A stretch of DNA of 64,000 nucleotides from contig OZ024755.1 in the NCBI GenBank assembly GCA_964016885.1, forward strand, positions 7,750,001 to 7,814,000, in the 5' to 3' direction. The notes under the pieces are model-generated. The model saw only the letters and a program-made list of their open reading frames with translations. It did no database searches and was not told where the DNA came from. The stretch comes from Eledone cirrhosa (lineage: Eukaryota). Each line of letters opens with the position of its first letter. Within the stretch, counting starts at the first letter, position 1. The position numbers and the translations under genes are program-made. Shown one piece after another: positions 5,706 to 51,142 of the stretch.

Positions 5706-8700
5706 CTACAGGATGGTATACAGAGAAGGCCCATTTACACGAGCCATTCTCGCCACTATCACCCACCTTTCATAAAACTGCCTGTGGCCAAGCACCTCTC
5801 TCTCCATTCTTATCCTTCTTCCGAAGTGATATCGGAAGAAGTAGACCAGACTATGGCCAGAGAGGAAGTTGCCTGACCTCAGACCTTTCAATCGTGTCCA
5901 CCAAACAACCTCTTTCAACATGGCTATTACGCACAGAAAAACCGCCTTTGCTTCCTTTGTGAAGAGGGGAGGCGGTTTGATTGTCATCACGGACTCGGCG
6001 GTCAATTTAATCGGCGCCACCCGCGACAGCAGTTGTTCGGCGTAGCCCCACAGATCAGCCACGCCAGGACATTGCACCAATGCGTGCGCCACGGTTTCTT
6101 CGTGACGCACGCATCTAGGGCAAATCTTTTTTGAGGGATCCCTGCCCGGGCGCCCGTGTCTGTAGAGCCTCTCTCGAACGGGTAGAGCCCCTCGGTAGCA
6201 CTGCCAGGCCAGTGACTTCTGGAAGTTGTCCATTGGTCCTGGGCCGAAAGTCCTACCGAACAGGCTGGCCAGTTCGTCTTCTTCCATGTCCAGCGACTCT
6301 CCAAGGGTGTCATCGCCCCTGCTAGCCACCAGCCCTCTATAGAATGATGAGGTGGATTCTCCACCGATGGCCCGGCCCGCTTGCCAGAGAGCCCTGAGCG
6401 CCTGAGCACACTCAGTGTGCCAGTCTCCCAGTTTTCCGGATCTTTGCTTGACCCAGGACTGTAGCTCGGTGAGTGAGACGAGTCTCGGAAAGGCTCGTTT
6501 CACGAACGGAGCCCACACCGGTTGACCAGTGAGGAATACCTGTAGGTGCCGTAGCCTTAATGCGTGCCTACGCATCATCAACCACGGCATCCCCAGTCCT
6601 CCTTTCGAAGGTTGTTGGCAGCAGATGGATCTTCTCACCATAGGAGGACGCTTCTTCCAAAGAAATTGGAAGAGCATGCGTTCCATGGTGGTGAGTGTTT
6701 CCTTAGGGCAAGGCACGACAGTCAGGCGGTAGTAAGTGACGGACGCTATGTAAATGTTCGCCACCTCCGCCCGGCCTTTTAGGGACAGCTTACACTTGGC
6801 CCATTTCTGGGTTAGTGCAAACACCTTGTTCGTAACCTCGTTCCAGTTCTTTTCCACCTGGAGGTCCGGTCCAAACCAGACCCCAAGCAACTTTACCGGG
6901 CCCTCCGTCCAGTGTCCGACGACACCGTCAGGAGGCATCGGTTTGCCTCTCCACGTTCCGAGTTGCAGCCCGATGGATTTTTCCCGGTTCAGTTTCGCTC
7001 CTGACAACCTTTCGTACTCCTCCAGTAGGGTACCGATCGCCTCGATCTCCGAGTCGGTTGATACCATTACTGTTACGTCATCGGCGTAGGCCGACACCGC
7101 TTTGCTCAATCCTGGTTCCAGGGGGATACCCTGCAACAACTCCAACTTCCTCAGTAAAGGCTCGAGAGTCAATACGTACAGAAGGGAGGAGAGAGGGCAC
7201 CCCTGTCGAATGGATCGTGTGATTTCGAACGGCTTCGAAAGGTAGCCGTTCACCTTGATCCTAGAACAGATGTGGTTGCTATGTAGGGCAGTGATCCAGC
7301 CTCTGAAAACAGGACCGAACCCAGCCGCCGCTAGCACCGCATCCAGGTAACCATGGTCGACCCTATCGAAGGCCTTAGACTGATCCAAGTTGATCAGGGC
7401 CCCACCGAAGCCGGGTTTGTTGCCAACCCTCTCTATGATGTATCGCATGAGGTGGAGGTTATCGTGAATGGACCTGGATGGGATAGCACATGTCTGCGCA
7501 TCTCCCACCAGGCCACCCACGACAAGCGCCAACCTCTTTGCTAACACCTTGGCCAAAATCTTTAACTCTGTGTTTAGCAGGGTTATGGGCCGAAAATTAT
7601 TTATACTATCCCCCTTGTTCTCGTCCTTCCTCACCAGCGTGACTACGCCCTTGGCTACAGAACAAGGAATTCTCCCGTTCTGCTGCCAATTGCAGTAGAC
7701 CGCTTCGAGGAGTTCGGAGAAGAAGACCGGCATTGCTAAATAAAGTTCGTAAGGTATACCATCGAGACCTGGAGATTTGCGTCTGCTGCATTGGCTCAGC
7801 GCATCTCCGATCTCATCAGCCGAGATTGGTCCCTCGCAGGACTCCGCCTCTTTGTTCGAGAGACGCGGCAGGCCGTCGAGGTATGGACCGAAATCCACGC
7901 CCCGGCCCGGACCCTCGCCTCCCCCGAACAATCGGGCAAAGTGCTTTTGAAAGGCCTCGCACATCTGCTTAGGCTCCCGGATCACTCGTCCATCTTCGTC
8001 TTGCAACGACCGGATGGTGGATCGATTTCCACTTTTAGCTTCTGTCACGCGGGCCCATCCAACGGCTTTGGCCCCCTCATTACCTAGAGCACGTATTTTA
8101 CTTCGAATGACGCAGCCTTCATGCTTTGCATCGAAAAACTGGTTCAAGGCCGTCCTCGATGCCAGCACTCTGGCCACATCTTCGCTCTTGATTGCCTCTT
8201 CTAATTTACCTGTTAATTCTTTCTCGTTTCTATTCCTATTGGCAGCTAACATCTTGCTATAACTTATTGATTCTGTTCTAATCTCTCTTTTGAGAGATGC
8301 CCACCATCGGTTGTTGACGATTGCACCCGTCAACCTCTCCTTAACTAATCTGCTAATCCGGTTTCTGTAAGTCTCTTTTGCCGGTAAAGACAAATTAAGT
8401 TTCCAGTAACCGGGACCCTGTCTATGTGTTTTCTCGAGATTGACCACGCAGGTCACTAATTTGTGATCCGTGTAGCCAACCGTGCGCATTTCTGGACAGC
8501 TTAATATGTCCCTATCCTTACTTCTAACTAAGAATCTATCTAAGTACGATCTAGATTGACCACTGTGGTTTCTCCAAGTCCAGGTAGGCACAGTTGGAAA
8601 ATCTAGTCGATATCTATCGACCAAGTTAAAACGGTCGAGTAACCCCTTGAGGCTGTTACACCCCCCTCTATTAGGACATGCTCCTGCATAGTCCCAACGT

Positions 8701-9143
8701 GCATCTAGGATGTCATTCCAATCCCCCGCTAGAAGCAGGGAACGCGACGTTCCCAGAAAAGTCTCCAAACGCTGGAAGAAGTCGGGCCGTTCAGCTCCGA
8801 AAGGGGAGTAGACGGCGACCAGTCTCAAGGCCGCACTTTCACTACTGCCAACGTCTAGCACCAACAAACGACCCTCCGGGTCCGAGTGCACAACCTGTAC
8901 GGCAAGACCCAGGTGTTTTTGCAGCAGCACGACAACCCCACCCCCACCTCCAGGTTGACAGAGAGATGCATGCACCTCAAAGTCATCGAAGGTGGGGGCC
9001 AGCTGCTGCATGACGCTGATTCGAGTCTCACAGATAACCATTACATTTATACTACATGACCTGAGGTCATTTAGAAGCTTTGCTTGCTTCCAAGTTGAGC
9101 CCAGGCCACGTGCATTCAAACATCCTACTCTTAACACATCCAT
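5706..9143 (-). CDS. ORF2: APE endonuclease + reverse transcriptase + C-terminal CCHC zinc finger (1145 aa)
   Basis: APE motifs GCLNARGL, ICET, AVYSP, AGDWN, YLDRFL, TDH. RT motifs KSPGLDG, NFRPITLLN, LDQSKAFDRV, IRQGCPLS, YADD, LLGV. Linker GPGYWKLN is typical of Tx1. C-terminal CPRC-x8-H-x4-C. Confidence 0.97.
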   Translation of the reverse strand: MDVLRVGCLNARGLGSTWKQAKLLNDLRSCSINVMVICETRISVMQQLAPTFDDFEVHASLCQPGGGGGVVVLLQKHLGLAVQVVHSDPEGRLLVLDVGSSESAALRLVAVYSPFGAERPDFFQRLETFLGTSRSLLLAGDWNDILDARWDYAGACPNRGGCNSLKGLLDRFNLVDRYRLDFPTVPTWTWRNHSGQSRSYLDRFLVRSKDRDILSCPEMRTVGYTDHKLVTCVVNLEKTHRQGPGYWKLNLSLPAKETYRNRISRLVKERLTGAIVNNRWWASLKREIRTESISYSKMLAANRNRNEKELTGKLEEAIKSEDVARVLASRTALNQFFDAKHEGCVIRSKIRALGNEGAKAVGWARVTEAKSGNRSTIRSLQDEDGRVIREPKQMCEAFQKHFARLFGGGEGPGRGVDFGPYLDGLPRLSNKEAESCEGPISADEIGDALSQCSRRKSPGLDGIPYELYLAMPVFFSELLEAVYCNWQQNGRIPCSVAKGVVTLVRKDENKGDSINNFRPITLLNTELKILAKVLAKRLALVVGGLVGDAQTCAIPSRSIHDNLHLMRYIIERVGNKPGFGGALINLDQSKAFDRVDHGYLDAVLAAAGFGPVFRGWITALHSNHICSRIKVNGYLSKPFEITRSIRQGCPLSSLLYVLTLEPLLRKLELLQGIPLEPGLSKAVSAYADDVTVMVSTDSEIEAIGTLLEEYERLSGAKLNREKSIGLQLGTWRGKPMPPDGVVGHWTEGPVKLLGVWFGPDLQVEKNWNEVTNKVFALTQKWAKCKLSLKGRAEVANIYIASVTYYRLTVVPCPKETLTTMERMLFQFLWKKRPPMVRRSICCQQPSKGGLGMPWLMMRRHALRLRHLQVFLTGQPVWAPFVKRAFPRLVSLTELQSWVKQRSGKLGDWHTECAQALRALWQAGRAIGGESTSSFYRGLVASRGDDTLGESLDMEEDELASLFGRTFGPGPMDNFQKSLAWQCYRGALPVRERLYRHGRPGRDPSKKICPRCVRHEETVAHALVQCPGVADLWGYAEQLLSRVAPIKLTAESVMTIKPPPLFTKEAKAVFLCVIAMLKEVVWWTRLKGLRSGNFLSGHSLVYFFRYHFGRRIRMEREVLGHRQFYERWVIVARMARVNGPSLYTIL

Positions 9144-9176
9144 GTGGGCGGCAGAGCCAAAGGAGAGTGTAGAGAC

Positions 9177-11057
9177 CTACCTTTCCGCTTCCCGGGGTTC
9201 GGGTTGCACGACTTCCATGGGGTCGGGGGTGTTGGGTGAAGGGGTGTCTTGTGGTGGTGTGGGGTCGTCGGTGTGTGGTGGGGTTGGGGTGTTTGGAGTT
9301 GTGTTGGGGAGGGGAAGGGGAGGGGGAAAGCTTTTTAGTAGGACGCGGTTTATGGGTTTGACAGAGGGTGGTCCTACGTCCTCCTTAAAATCCTTTTTTA
9401 GTTTTTGGTAGAGGTTCATTGGGATTTTTATTAGTTTTAAATGTGGGTGGTTTTCTGATGAAACAAAGTTTACACCTTCGGTTTGTACCGAAGGATTATT
9501 GTATATGAGTTCATTTAATTTATTATTGTTTCTGTTGATGTAAGTATAGTGTAATGTCTTTTTTTCCGATGGTGTGAGTGTTTCGAAGAGGGGAGGGGCA
9601 GGTTTGGTTTTGTTTGTTGCTGGAGGGGTGTTTTCTGTTTTGTTAGATTGTGTTGCGATTTGGGTGGGGGTTGTTTGTCCTTGTGTGTTTTGCACATGTT
9701 TTCTTTTTTTCCTTTTAATCTGTCTGAAGGACTCCGTTTCTTCCTCCGAATTCGTTGGGTTATCTTCAGTGTTGGAGGGAAGAGGTATGTTTGCTGGTAA
9801 TGTTTCCGTGTTGGTTTTCTTTGTGGGGGAGATGGATGTCACTATGTTAGACTGTGTTGTGTGTTGTGTCTGCGGTGGTTGTGTTGTTTTATTGAGTGAG
9901 AGGTTGGGTGGGCCTGTATTTTGTTTTGGGGTAATGTGTTGTGACTGTTTGTGTTGTGGTGGTGTTGTGGTGTTACTGAGGGACGGGTTGGGTGGGACTG
10001 AGTTTTGTTGTTTGTTTATCTGTTGTGGTGGTGGTGGTGGAGCTGGTGTTGGTAGCAGGGTTTTCTTTTTGTTGAGTTGGGGACAAGCGGCCTTCAGGTG
10101 CCCTCTGCCTGCACAGATATGGCAGGACGGCCTTCTCCCCTCCACGCTAATGTTTATATACCCGTGGTCCTCTAATAGGATTCTGTCGGGTATTTGGGCG
10201 ATGCGTTCAGGCTTCATTTGTACTACCAGCTCTATACCTGTTCCACTGAACGCATTGCCTGTGGTTTTCCCAATGGAAATCACGTTGTCATTCACTGGAT
10301 CGATGAAGCCAGCTATGAGCCAGCAGTAGTCCACATCTGGCATCATTGCATCCAGCCATATGCGTTGAGTTTTTTTCCCCATATAAGATGGATAAAAGGT
10401 GAAATTTTTCGAACGAATCGGTGACAAAGCACATTTTTTTGCCGCCGATTCGTTCTTCATGATAATTGCTAGGCTTCCATACAGTCTGTCTTTTCTTATG
10501 AAAGTTGTTTCATTCAGTACTTCTGCGAGTACTGTTTTGATATCTGCTTGAGAAGGCTGTTCAGGTTTTTTTGTACTGTTGTTGATGGTCCGAAACTTGA
10601 CCGTTCGGCTTTCAATGTCTTTCGTGAATTCTTGAGGCATTTTTACCAATAAAATACCATTCTCACCTTCACTTATGTATTGTTTTGCGTCCGTGATCCT
10701 TCGTACCACATCTGAAATGTTTTCCGCTATATAAGTCAAAGATTTCTTTGTTTTCTGTGCAAAAGAAATCTTGTCGTCTGCTTTGTTTTCTGATATTATG
10801 TTATTTTCAACTGTTATTTTTTTGTTTGTTGTGTCTTTGTTTGTGTTATTAGTATTGTCATGCAATTTTTCAAATTTTTTTTTTTCGTTGTTTTCGTCAT
10901 TTAATTTTTTTTCCTCCGCAGATTCGTCCGTTTTTATTTTCATTTTTCCTTCCTTCTCTATGACGTTAGTTGGGAAGGAAGGGAGGACTAAAGCGTGCGA
11001 GCTTACAACTCTTACCGCTGTCCCCCCACCACTATTTTCGTTCGCTGCGTTTAACAT
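9177..11057 (-). CDS. ORF1: gag-like nucleic-acid-binding protein (626 aa)
   Basis: Long ORF upstream of ORF2 on the same strand; CHICAGRGHLKAAC is a CX2CX4HX4C knuckle; long P/T/N/Q-rich tail typical of Tx1 ORF1. Confidence 0.9.
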   Translation of the reverse strand: MLNAANENSGGGTAVRVVSSHALVLPSFPTNVIEKEGKMKIKTDESAEEKKLNDENNEKKKFEKLHDNTNNTNKDTTNKKITVENNIISENKADDKISFAQKTKKSLTYIAENISDVVRRITDAKQYISEGENGILLVKMPQEFTKDIESRTVKFRTINNSTKKPEQPSQADIKTVLAEVLNETTFIRKDRLYGSLAIIMKNESAAKKCALSPIRSKNFTFYPSYMGKKTQRIWLDAMMPDVDYCWLIAGFIDPVNDNVISIGKTTGNAFSGTGIELVVQMKPERIAQIPDRILLEDHGYINISVEGRRPSCHICAGRGHLKAACPQLNKKKTLLPTPAPPPPPQQINKQQNSVPPNPSLSNTTTPPQHKQSQHITPKQNTGPPNLSLNKTTQPPQTQHTTQSNIVTSISPTKKTNTETLPANIPLPSNTEDNPTNSEEETESFRQIKRKKRKHVQNTQGQTTPTQIATQSNKTENTPPATNKTKPAPPLFETLTPSEKKTLHYTYINRNNNKLNELIYNNPSVQTEGVNFVSSENHPHLKLIKIPMNLYQKLKKDFKEDVGPPSVKPINRVLLKSFPPPLPLPNTTPNTPTPPHTDDPTPPQDTPSPNTPDPMEVVQPEPREAER

Positions 11058-11289
11058 TTCTGTTAGACGATTGAAATTTTTTACACAAAATTTTTTAAAA
11101 CAGGTTTTTCACCTCTAGGAGGGGTAAAGATGAGCTGACCCACCGCCTGACAGTTCAGACGGAGGGTCAAGCTACACAATTGTATCAAAATTAAGTTTGA
11201 ACTCACAAAATTTCCTCAATAAATTTGAACAAAACTTCTGTGCGAAGTGAATGACATCCACACTGTAGAACAGACGACAGCTAGATTTA

Positions 11290-22914: not shown

Positions 22915-22970
<56 letters not shown>

Positions 22971-22974
<4 letters not shown>

Positions 22975-23418
22975 AAATATGACCCCGACGGCAGAGCTGA
23001 AGCCGTTTCGACGGCTATTTCTGGACTAAATTAGAATTTTTAGCCTGGTGAATAAATAGCCGAACTTGTCAAGGGGGTACAACGCTTGACCGACTCCACT
23101 CACTCCCCATTGTTCTACAGGCAAGTTCAGCCACCCCTACCTCCACCAAATGCCATGATAGACTTATTTGTGTTTACAACAAAATTTAACCAATCGTCTT
23201 GACAACTACAATCTTCCCATTTAAGGAAGTACCCCCTTGACGAGTTCGGCTATTTATTCACCAGGCTAAAAATTCTAATTTAGTCCAAAAATAGCCGTCG
23301 AAACGGCTTGAGCTCTGCCGTCGGGGTCATACTTTTTCCTATTTCCCACTCTACTACCCTAAGTTTGGAGTAATCTGGTGCGTTATGGTCCATCTGGTTC
23401 CTTACCACAATTCCTTGG

Positions 23419-23420
<2 letters not shown>
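22971..23420 (+). mobile_element. Family A fold-back element (longest copy): ~110-bp inverted arms, ~148-bp spacer, fixed 3' tail into (TA)n
   Basis: Arms ~22971-23080 and ~23229-23338; tail cctatttcccactctactaccctaag...ccttaccac...gttATA shared with four other copies. Confidence 0.85.
23231..23327 (+). ncRNA. Type I hammerhead ribozyme, U3 variant with extended stem II (family A)
   Basis: Stem I cccc/gggg; core TTGACGA 23237-23243; G10.1-C11.1 plus cggctattt/aaatagccg; GAAA 23300-23303; stem III acggc/gccgt; GUC triplet (cut after 23322). The mirror copy at 22982-23078 (-) has core TTGACAA. Confidence 0.75.
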
Positions 23421-34092: not shown

Positions 34093-34238
34093 AATACTTA
34101 GGGTAGTAGAGTGGGTAATAGGAACATGTTTAACTGTTTAACCTATTTAAACATTTTCCTATTACCCACTCTACTACCCTAAGTATTGAGTACTCTGGAG
34201 CGTTATGGTCCATCTGATTCCTTACCACACTTCCTTCG

Positions 34239-34240
<2 letters not shown>
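34093..34240 (+). mobile_element. Family A fold-back element (short)
   Basis: Arms 34093-34133 and 34147-34187; same fixed 3' end ccttaccacacttccttcgttATA. Confidence 0.88.
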
Positions 34241-42770: not shown

Positions 42771-43518
42771 TATATATATATATATATATATAATTTGATA
42801 CTTGAAATTCTGAGCTTTAATCTTATCGAGGTTGAAATATATAGTAGAGAGACAAACTGAAAATAGTAAACTGGTGATGTGTGTGAACGCAAGCATGTGT
42901 GTGTGGGTGTGTGGTTAGAAAATATAATCTGGCCATTATTCAAAAAATGCCCGGTGTTAGAGCCAAGACATAAATTCATAATAAAATTCCTAATTGCATA
43001 ATAAAGCAATTGTTATCACAAAGAGGCCATATTTGGTTTTCAATAAATTACCTCCCAGAAAGAACCCATAAAATATAAGTCTATTTAGAATCAATTATCT
43101 ATCAATGCTGGAGATGCTTTCAGTCATAAACTTACGATTATATATAAGAAAAATCGCCAAGACGAGGCTTCAATTGAATGCATTACTACAACAAGAACCC
43201 GAGAGACACTTTATTTGTTTTGTGCCAGGATAAGAATCATCTTACGAATTATTTGTCTTGAAAGAGGAAACGTTTAAAAAATGTCTCCAACTGTTTTCAC
43301 GATGAATGGACAAGTTGTTCAATGACACGGAATAGGGCCTGAAATTAACGTGTAAGTTGCTGAGGTACCCATGATATGATTTCTCGGGAAGATTCAGTAT
43401 TTCACAGTGTCTAACAAGGTCAACATTGAAATGCAAGCAGAGTTTATTAGATAAGCTTCTACGTGTTTCCCACTATCCAATTTCACTCTCAAAGCATGGT
43501 TATATATATATATATATA

Positions 43519-43889
<371 letters not shown>

Positions 43890-50990: not shown

Positions 50991-51065
50991 AACAAAGGGG
51001 TGTGGTAAGAAACCAGGTGGACCATAACGCACCAGAGTACTCAATACTTAGGGTAGTAGAGTGGG

Positions 51066-51069
<4 letters not shown>
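50991..51069 (-). mobile_element. Family A 5'-truncated copy (tail only, no fold-back)
   Basis: aacaaaggggtgtggtaagaaaccagg...cttagggtagtagagtgggtaat between TA tracts. Confidence 0.85.

Positions 51070-51142
<73 letters not shown>

What the first reader, a model, noticed from the sequence alone, without database searches (positions are those of the whole stretch)
22982..23327. Hammerhead with a U3-A8 / U3-G8 core and a ~56-nt stem II, present on both strands
Seen: the right arm core is UUGACGA and the left (minus-strand) arm core is UUGACAA; stems I, II and III, GAAA and GUC are intact in both. Known: positions 3 and 8 form a tertiary Watson-Crick pair (normally C3-G8), and U3-A8 is the compensatory alternative. 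The left arm therefore carries a structurally coherent rare variant that CUGANGA searches miss. Stem III and GUC are kept in the 24774 and 43519 copies while loop 3 (around GAGCUC) varies slightly. Either strand's transcript could self-cleave, in competition with the 110-bp arm duplex.
Basis: partly seen in the sequence, partly recalled or inferred. Interest (0 to 1): 0.75.

Follow-up and report, generated by a model that had tools for sequence, protein, structure and literature searches.

The report
Penelope ribozyme enclosing its own promoter
This is a short, mirror-image leftover of a common animal jumping gene whose self-cutting RNA motif is an already described variant; the more interesting point is that most copies of the family stop inside the motif's unusually long arm, likely because the element's RNA starts there.

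Summary
The motifs are there as described, but they are the 3' end of a Hydra-clade Penelope-like retrotransposon inserted in (TA)n with its usual inverted, 5'-truncated second arm; this explains 'both strands'. U3-A8 is not rare: 2,878 of 4,453 genomic core matches have it, and it is published for Penelope-like hammerheads. The right arm's U3·G8 is a private mutation (38 of 4,453 have G8). Positions 3/8 do not covary: A8 is fixed and a C3·A8 lineage made 1,537 copies. A transcript across both arms is predicted to form the arm duplex, not a ribozyme. More interesting: 60 of 73 direct and 57 of 67 inverted arms end within 7 nt of one A inside stem II (23282), which has an initiator-like context, a TATA-like word 29-31 nt upstream and an excess of extra G. 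Most likely the long stem II houses the transcription start. A small peak of ends at the cut site suggests occasional cleavage. Nothing was tested on RNA. The scan noted the Hydra assignment, unequal arm ends and start-inside-ribozyme idea before on other DNA of this genome.

The parts
22967..23080 (-). Inverted, 5'-truncated arm of the retrotransposon; holds a whole hammerhead with U3-A8 (core 23072-23066, C17 22987); its outer end is the short family end point (no tail), abutting (TA)n
23081..23420 (+). Direct, 5'-truncated arm: end of the 3' UTR, hammerhead and 78-nt tail of a Hydra-clade Penelope-like element; followed by (TA)n
   Evidence: 95% identity to long RT/GIY-YIG-coding copies from 23081 on
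23224..23236 (+). Stem I 5' strand (CCCC 23233-23236; predicted extension GUA and AGGAA pairing with 23330-23340)
   Evidence: prediction
23237..23243 (+). Core UUGACGA; G8 (23242) is a private change from the family's A8
23244..23299 (+). Long stem II (56 nt)
23251..23258 (+). TATA-like word in the stem II 5' strand, 29-31 nt upstream of the pile-up site in nearly all full copies (TATTTATT, TATTTAAA, TATTCATA); function inferred
   Evidence: TATA consensus and spacing recalled
23280..23285 (+). Initiator-like TT(A)GTC; the A at 23282 is where most family copies end 5'; inferred transcription start
   Evidence: initiator consensus recalled
23300..23322 (+). GAAA, stem III (5 bp, 9-nt loop with GAGCUC palindrome) and GUC; predicted cut after 23322
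   Evidence: small peak of copy ends at this bond
23339..23342 (+). Short end point (inferred second reverse-transcription start): outer end of inverted arms
   Evidence: 57 of 74 inverted arms end exactly here; 18 of 18 long pairs
23343..23420 (+). 78-nt tail, present as a rule on one arm only; in tandem copies it runs on into the 5' UTR and start codon
24774..24982 (-). Fold-back mini copy of a sister subfamily; both arms stop at the stem II site; half hammerheads only
43518..43740 (+). Fold-back mini copy; both arms stop at the stem II site; half hammerheads only
34096..34240 (+). Very short copy, tail plus a short inverted piece
51001..51070 (-). Tail-only copy between TA repeats

Best explanation
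The locus is a dead, two-armed insertion of a Hydra-clade Penelope-like retrotransposon in a TA repeat, and its hammerhead motif with the family-wide U3-A8 core likely has a long stem II because that stem likely carries the element's transcription start. Shown: the element, the insertion in (TA)n, the two fixed outer ends (23342 and 23420 equivalents), the allele counts, the pile-up of 5' ends at the A of TT(A)GTC inside stem II. Inferred: the RT-endonuclease cuts both strands of a TA repeat and each end primes its own cDNA, one from the tail end and one from the short end point; the two cDNAs are joined head to head, giving hammerheads on both strands. When priming happens in the 5' repeat of a capped transcript that starts at 23282, both cDNAs run off after about 60 and 140 nt, giving the tens of thousands of ~200-bp fold-back minis with half hammerheads; when it happens in the 3' repeat or on a longer-than-unit (tandem or circular) RNA, the arms keep the whole hammerhead, as here. 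The ribozyme is predicted to be weak and switchable (a competing hairpin hides GAAA) and mostly uncut on the RNAs that are copied. This particular copy is predicted not to self-cleave: the arm duplex dominates and the right arm has a broken 3-8 pair.
For: Long relatives encode RT (YRDD) plus C-terminal GIY-YIG with RWR, DKT, CxCX5C, CxxC/CxH and no CCHH, the Hydra features of PMC8557442 section 11; at least 27 of the 30 best copies are followed by TA repeats. Outer ends: one short, one long in 18 of 18 long inverted pairs among 22 loci, with either arm the longer. Tail 30-mer: 27,920 matches against 4,453 with the 5' core. In the first 100 tail matches, 60 of 73 direct arms that reach GAAA end at -6..+7 and 57 of 67 inverted arms at -7..+7 of the A at 23282; only 10 direct arms go beyond -18. 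Base before that A in non-T copies: 10,152 matches, first 100 = 45 G, 47 C, 8 A (hand count); G in 10 of 17 arms ending exactly there against 14 of 54 at other ends, p=0.02; several insertions have the extra G on both arms (L225, L247, L329). TATA-like word at -29 to -31 in nearly all of 124 full copies. RT passes the stronger stem III and 9-bp stem II helix with few stops, and a 591-bp tandem family with an equally long stem II shows no such stop. N7 takes all four bases among subfamilies while GAAA, stem III, GUC and GGGG stay. Ends joined directly to TA peak at the cut site: 14 at +41 against 2-4 at each neighbouring position among 65 distinct loci (hand count; Poisson about 1e-4 to 1e-6).
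Against: No RNA evidence of start, cap or cleavage was obtained. Of 19 ORF-linked copies that reach the upstream repeat (of 30), only 4 end near 23282 and 15 read through both it and the cut site, so capped transcripts from this start cannot be the only template. The G excess is modest and part of it can come from the partner arm (4 of 15 filler-free junctions); about a third of arm ends are called at -1 to -7, upstream of the inferred start (some by chance likeness of the partner arm or T runs). The TATA-like word is a poor match in the C3·A8 subfamily (TATTCATA). The +41 peak could be an RT stop at the foot of stem III. A C3·A8 mismatch lineage amplified to 1,537 copies, so catalysis may be weak or dispensable. 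Two sampled insertions carry the tail on both arms (L223/L224, L277).
Confidence: 0.65

Rival explanations
1. Same element, but the pile-up inside stem II is a reverse-transcriptase stop or fold-back at the distal hairpin, or an RNase cut in the hairpin, not a transcription start; the long stem II has a structural role only.
For: The site lies on the 3' strand of a predicted 7-bp hairpin; ends spread over about 14 nt; most ORF-linked copies come from RNA that runs through the site (15 of 19).
Against: RT passes stronger helices just downstream; both independently primed arms stop at the same base; extra G on both arms in several copies; no stop in another long-stem-II family; arm lengths exclude simple fold-back copying because the tail-less arm is often the longer one.
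Confidence: 0.22
2. The motif is a catalytically dead or vestigial hammerhead kept for another job (promoter, protein-binding or RT-start signal).
For: A8 fixed while position 3 went U to C and back to U along the tree; 1,537 C3·A8 copies; hammerhead fold 3-3.5 kcal/mol above the minimum-energy fold; 15 of 19 ORF-linked copies read through the cut site and none ends there; in the anole element catalytic mutants did not affect insertion in vitro (PMC11167929).
Against: N7 is the free position, as in working hammerheads; the youngest clade is back at U3-A8 (99/95 support); ends peak at the scissile bond; U3-A8 cores are reported active (PMC3088659).
Confidence: 0.3
3. One reading: this locus is a two-stranded self-cleaving unit in which either transcript cuts itself in competition with the arm duplex.
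For: Both arms hold all core bases; the isolated left arm folds stems II and III with probability above 0.9; a transcript starting in the 150-nt spacer would escape the duplex.
Against: On either strand the antisense arm is transcribed first; duplex -225/-256 kcal/mol; right arm U3·G8 and left loop change are private mutations; the layout is the standard insertion product found thousands of times.
Confidence: 0.05

Closest known systems
Hydra clade of C-terminal EN+ Penelope-like elements (Craig et al. 2021, PMC8557442; section 11, passages, supplement parts 1-2 read)
   Same: Protein motifs, (TA)n targeting, hammerhead near the 3' end, partial tandems, inverted 5'-truncated arm, one-sided tail; Penelope-13_HM is listed with a hammerhead on both strands.
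   Different: All Hydra hammerheads in file S2 have CUGANGA, stem II regions under about 25 nt and short stem III; here YUGANAA, 56-nt stem II, 5-bp stem III with 9-nt loop, 78-nt tail (30-40 typical), unit about 3.06 kb. The listed Hydra-1_oBim hammerhead is a different sequence.
U3-A8 minimal hammerheads of Schistosoma Cercyon elements (Cervera and de la Pena 2014, PMC4209133; parts 1-2 of 4 read) and natural U3-A8 cores (Perreault 2011, PMC3088659; passages read)
   Same: U3-A8 core, G10.1-C11.1, short stem I, palindromic loop 3.
   Different: Those have 7-8 bp stem II and minimal stem III; no C3·A8 lineage or start inside stem II is described in the parts read.
Poseidon element of Anolis (Frangieh 2024, PMC11167929; parts 1-2 of 4 read)
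   Same: Both strands cut and extended, AT-rich target, two internal RT start sites that define the tail, hammerhead dispensable for insertion in vitro.
   Different: There the hammerhead overlaps the start codon and no reads ended at the cut site; here it lies about 230 nt upstream of the ATG and genomic ends peak inside stem II and weakly at the cut site.
Drosophila virilis Penelope promoter (Schostak 2008, PMC2377424; passages read)
   Same: Transcription starts inside the upstream pseudo-LTR.
   Different: TATA-less internal promoter with an intron, start upstream of the hammerhead; here the inferred start is within the ribozyme.

Membership tests
Hydra clade PLE | Single ORF, RT with C-terminal GIY-YIG | tested here: met
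   L207, L201, L038 translations: YRDD RT then VIY..YIG; read by eye, Pfam gave 0 families for 3 of 3 pieces
Hydra clade PLE | RWK motif and DKT in place of DKG | tested here: met
   RLRWRT (R for K) and HSDKTG
Hydra clade PLE | CxCX5C linker; no CCHH; CxxC and CxH around conserved E and N | tested here: met
   CNCPDRSTC; CNLCSEE...LNKK...CKH
Hydra clade PLE | Insertion into (TA)n | tested here: met
   at least 27 of 30 copies followed by TA repeats
Hydra clade PLE | Short (generally under 3 kb) | tested here: inconclusive
   tandem spacing 3,057 bp in L201, at the upper edge
Hydra clade PLE | RT phylogeny with published Hydra proteins | not tested
   published proteins were not obtained
Naiad/Chlamys | N-terminal GIY-YIG | tested here: not met
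   endonuclease is C-terminal
Type I hammerhead ribozyme | Core U4 G5 A6 N7 A9, G12 A13 A14, A15.1-U16.1, H17 | tested here: met
   both arms; N7 variable across subfamilies
Type I hammerhead ribozyme | Watson-Crick 3-8 pair | tested here: inconclusive
   met in left arm and 2,886 of 4,453 copies; not met in right arm (U·G) and 1,537 C·A copies
Type I hammerhead ribozyme | Three stems around the core | tested here: met
   can form, 3-3.5 kcal/mol above the minimum-energy fold; no clean compensatory pair changes seen among close subfamilies
Type I hammerhead ribozyme | Self-cleavage after H17 | not testable with these tools
   only indirect: peak of copy ends at the bond
Non-LTR retrozyme | Non-coding tandem repeat with one hammerhead per unit | tested here: not met
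   unit is a ~3-kb coding element; this copy is an inverted pair

The most novel reading that the evidence does not exclude
The promoter sits inside the ribozyme, so a new transcript begins with only half a hammerhead; that half can be cut only when it borrows the core and the 9-bp stem II strand from the copy at the far 3' end. Cutting at both ends removes the cap and yields a unit-length circle, the template for full-length, longer-than-unit insertions, while uncut capped RNA yields the mini fold-backs. The split hammerhead is energetically plausible (-29.7 kcal/mol against -13.2 and -3.6 for the halves).
Probability: 0.25. Interest if true: 0.78.

Novelty: new variant of a known kind. Interest (0 to 1): 0.48.

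Why it matters
What hammerheads do in Penelope-like elements, and how their inverted and tandem copies arise, is open (PMC8557442, PMC11167929). This family leaves about 28,000 genomic footprints with a sharp 5' stop inside the ribozyme, two fixed outer ends and a faint peak at the cut site, which turn those questions into simple tests (CAGE, circle RT-PCR, cleavage of natural U3-A8 against C3·A8 copies).

Tried and rejected
Rfam on the whole window: only low-complexity microRNA-type matches among the 150 of 336 rows shown; none on the element. The repeat finder was swamped by TA repeats. Pfam: 0 families for 3 protein pieces. Alternative core register (CUUGACAA with an extra U) rejected because 4-C subfamilies give a clean U3-A8. 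Idea that C3 arose twice with G7 (shifted register): the tree shows one C3·A8 grade, so it is not supported (the first tree, held almost only one subfamily). Simple fold-back copying rejected. A single non-autonomous mini family rejected: junctions differ copy by copy. Covariation of stem pairs: subfamilies too close, only slips that keep pairing; one row of alignment A1 was mis-placed and no counts were taken from it. Bacterial promoter scan uninformative. Lunse et al. (PMC5785218) is not held; known only through a review's passages (PMC6765202) and may describe further core variants. Searches that found no paper on a start or cap inside a Penelope hammerhead; on C3U/G8A; subscription journals, Repbase and 57 of 59 parts of the Craig supplement were not seen.

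Full report
Observation. The right arm carries UUGACGA at 23237-23243, a 56-nt stem II region closed by G-C, GAAA at 23300, a 5-bp stem III and GUC with C17 at 23322; the left arm carries the same on the minus strand with UUGACAA. The arms are 95.6% alike over 114 nt and the unit lies between TA repeats. The 24774 and 43519 copies hold only the 3' half of the motif. Rfam finds nothing on the element.

What it is. The right arm has thousands of relatives in G000 (2,614 candidates, 40 scored). Long ones encode an RT with a C-terminal GIY-YIG nuclease and the motifs RWR, DKT, CxCX5C, CxxC and CxH, without CCHH, which are the features given for the Hydra clade (PMC8557442 section 11). Copies end in (TA)n. 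In tandem copies the order is hammerhead, 78-nt tail, about 90 nt of 5' UTR, ATG. The window's 23081-23420 is a 340-nt 3' fragment and 22967-23080 an inverted shorter fragment; inverted 5'-truncated arms and a one-sided tail are described for these elements, and one published Hydra consensus has a hammerhead on both strands.

The core. Exact 20-mer counts: U3-A8 2,878; C3·A8 1,537; G8 38, of which 8 C3-G8 and 30 U3·G8 (the patterns fix the other core bases, so their constancy there is by construction). G8 at 0.85% fits scattered mutation in copies about 4% diverged; the right arm is one such case. There is no compensation (p=0.09). A tree of the nuclease region of 57 copies places the window's U3-A8 subfamily apart from a grade of C3·A8 subfamilies, within which the shortest-branched clade has U3-A8 again (99/95; midpoint root, order inferred from branch lengths). 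N7 takes all four bases. U3-A8 is published for Penelope-like hammerheads (PMC4209133) and as a natural, active covariation (PMC3088659). Other families in this genome have U3-A8 or long stem II too, including a 591-bp tandem family with 7,244 matches.

Would this locus cut itself? The hammerhead fold lies 3-3.5 kcal/mol above the minimum; a hairpin AGCCGU-CGAA-ACGGCU competes in the right arm and in two sister copies. A transcript across both arms folds into the arm duplex (-225 and -256 kcal/mol), and on either strand the antisense arm is made first. Self-cleavage here is unlikely.

Where copies end. A tail 30-mer has 27,920 matches, six times the number with a 5' core. I fetched the first 100 in genome order. 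Of 73 direct arms reaching GAAA, 60 end at -6..+7 of the A at 23282, and of 67 inverted arms 57 end at -7..+7; 10 direct arms go beyond -18; 27 direct arms are shorter than GAAA. Junctions differ per copy, so these are separate events. The site reads TT(A)GTC or TC(A)GT, like a Pol II initiator (recalled), with TATTTATT, TATTTAAA or TATTCATA 29-31 nt upstream in nearly all of 124 full copies. A non-template base precedes the A in 10,152 copies; the first 100 are 45 G, 47 C, 8 A (by hand). C is partly templated in one subfamily and partly the partner arm; G is partly the partner arm, but several insertions have it on both arms, and it is enriched over other ends (10 of 17 against 14 of 54, p=0.02). 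An extra G is the expected trace of copying a cap (recalled). RT passes stronger helices downstream, and the 591-bp family shows no such stop. Against a single template: of 30 ORF-start loci, 19 reach the upstream repeat, 4 end near the site, 15 read through it and through the cut site, none ends at the cut site.

Outer ends. In 18 of 18 long inverted pairs (22 loci examined, 4 uninformative) one arm ends at the 23342 equivalent and the other at 23420, and either may be the longer; 57 of 74 inverted arms in the sample end exactly at the short point; two insertions have tails on both arms. This fits two cDNAs primed from both cut strands at two RT start sites, as shown in vitro for the anole element (PMC11167929).

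Trace of cleavage. Among copies joined to TATA within 9 nt of the cut site (191 raw matches, first 100 listed, 65 distinct loci), 14 begin exactly at the first base after C17 against 2-4 at each neighbouring position, with 8 more ambiguous at +39/+40 (by hand). This fits occasional cleavage, or an RT stop at stem III; such copies are a few percent at most.

Mechanism. Shown: element identity, allele counts, end distributions. Inferred (0.65): transcription starts inside stem II; priming in the 5' repeat of that RNA gives the minis, priming in the 3' repeat or on tandem/circular RNA gives copies such as this one. More speculative (0.25): the 5' half-ribozyme is completed by the 3' copy (-29.7 kcal/mol), cutting off the cap and making a circle. 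No paper on a start inside a Penelope hammerhead came up, within the library's limits. Earlier notes of this scan on other DNA of the genome reached the Hydra assignment, the unequal ends and the start-inside-ribozyme reading; I read them after reaching these points, and they are not independent support.

Verdict. Real motif, known kind of element, known core variant; the long stem II with a probable start site and the C3·A8 lineage make it a new variant. Interest 0.48.

Noticed in passing
window 5706-11108 (-): Two long open frames (643 aa, then 1,156 aa with what look like AP-endonuclease and RT motifs, by eye): an apparently intact L1/Tx1-type LINE.
   Followed up: no
L033:3762 (-), L055:815 (+), L343-L372: A separate ~591-bp tandem retrozyme-like family with U3-A8 and a ~58-nt stem II, 7,244 matches, also in inverted pairs with two fixed outer ends.
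   Followed up: partly
G000, C3·A8 subfamilies, e.g. L111-L140: 1,537 copies with a mismatched 3-8 position formed several successive subfamilies before a return to U3: a natural test of whether catalysis matters.
   Followed up: partly
window 23245-23321: CGGCU and GCCGUC each occur twice, so stems II and III can swap partners and hide GAAA in a hairpin; near-equal energy suggests a switch.
   Followed up: partly
L226, L229, L274, L057: Long A/T runs at the junction exactly at the stem II site, like untemplated A tails on cDNA ends.
   Followed up: no
L002, L004, L012, L013, L025, L026, L035, L040, L045, L059, L176: Many other hammerhead families (C3-G8 and U3-A8, short and long stem II) lie near these insertions; other Hydra-like ORFs in L033, L035, L037.
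   Followed up: no
G000:C1:65546482 and 65547561: An inverted pair whose two cores belong to different subfamilies; if one insertion, its arms came from two RNAs.
   Followed up: no
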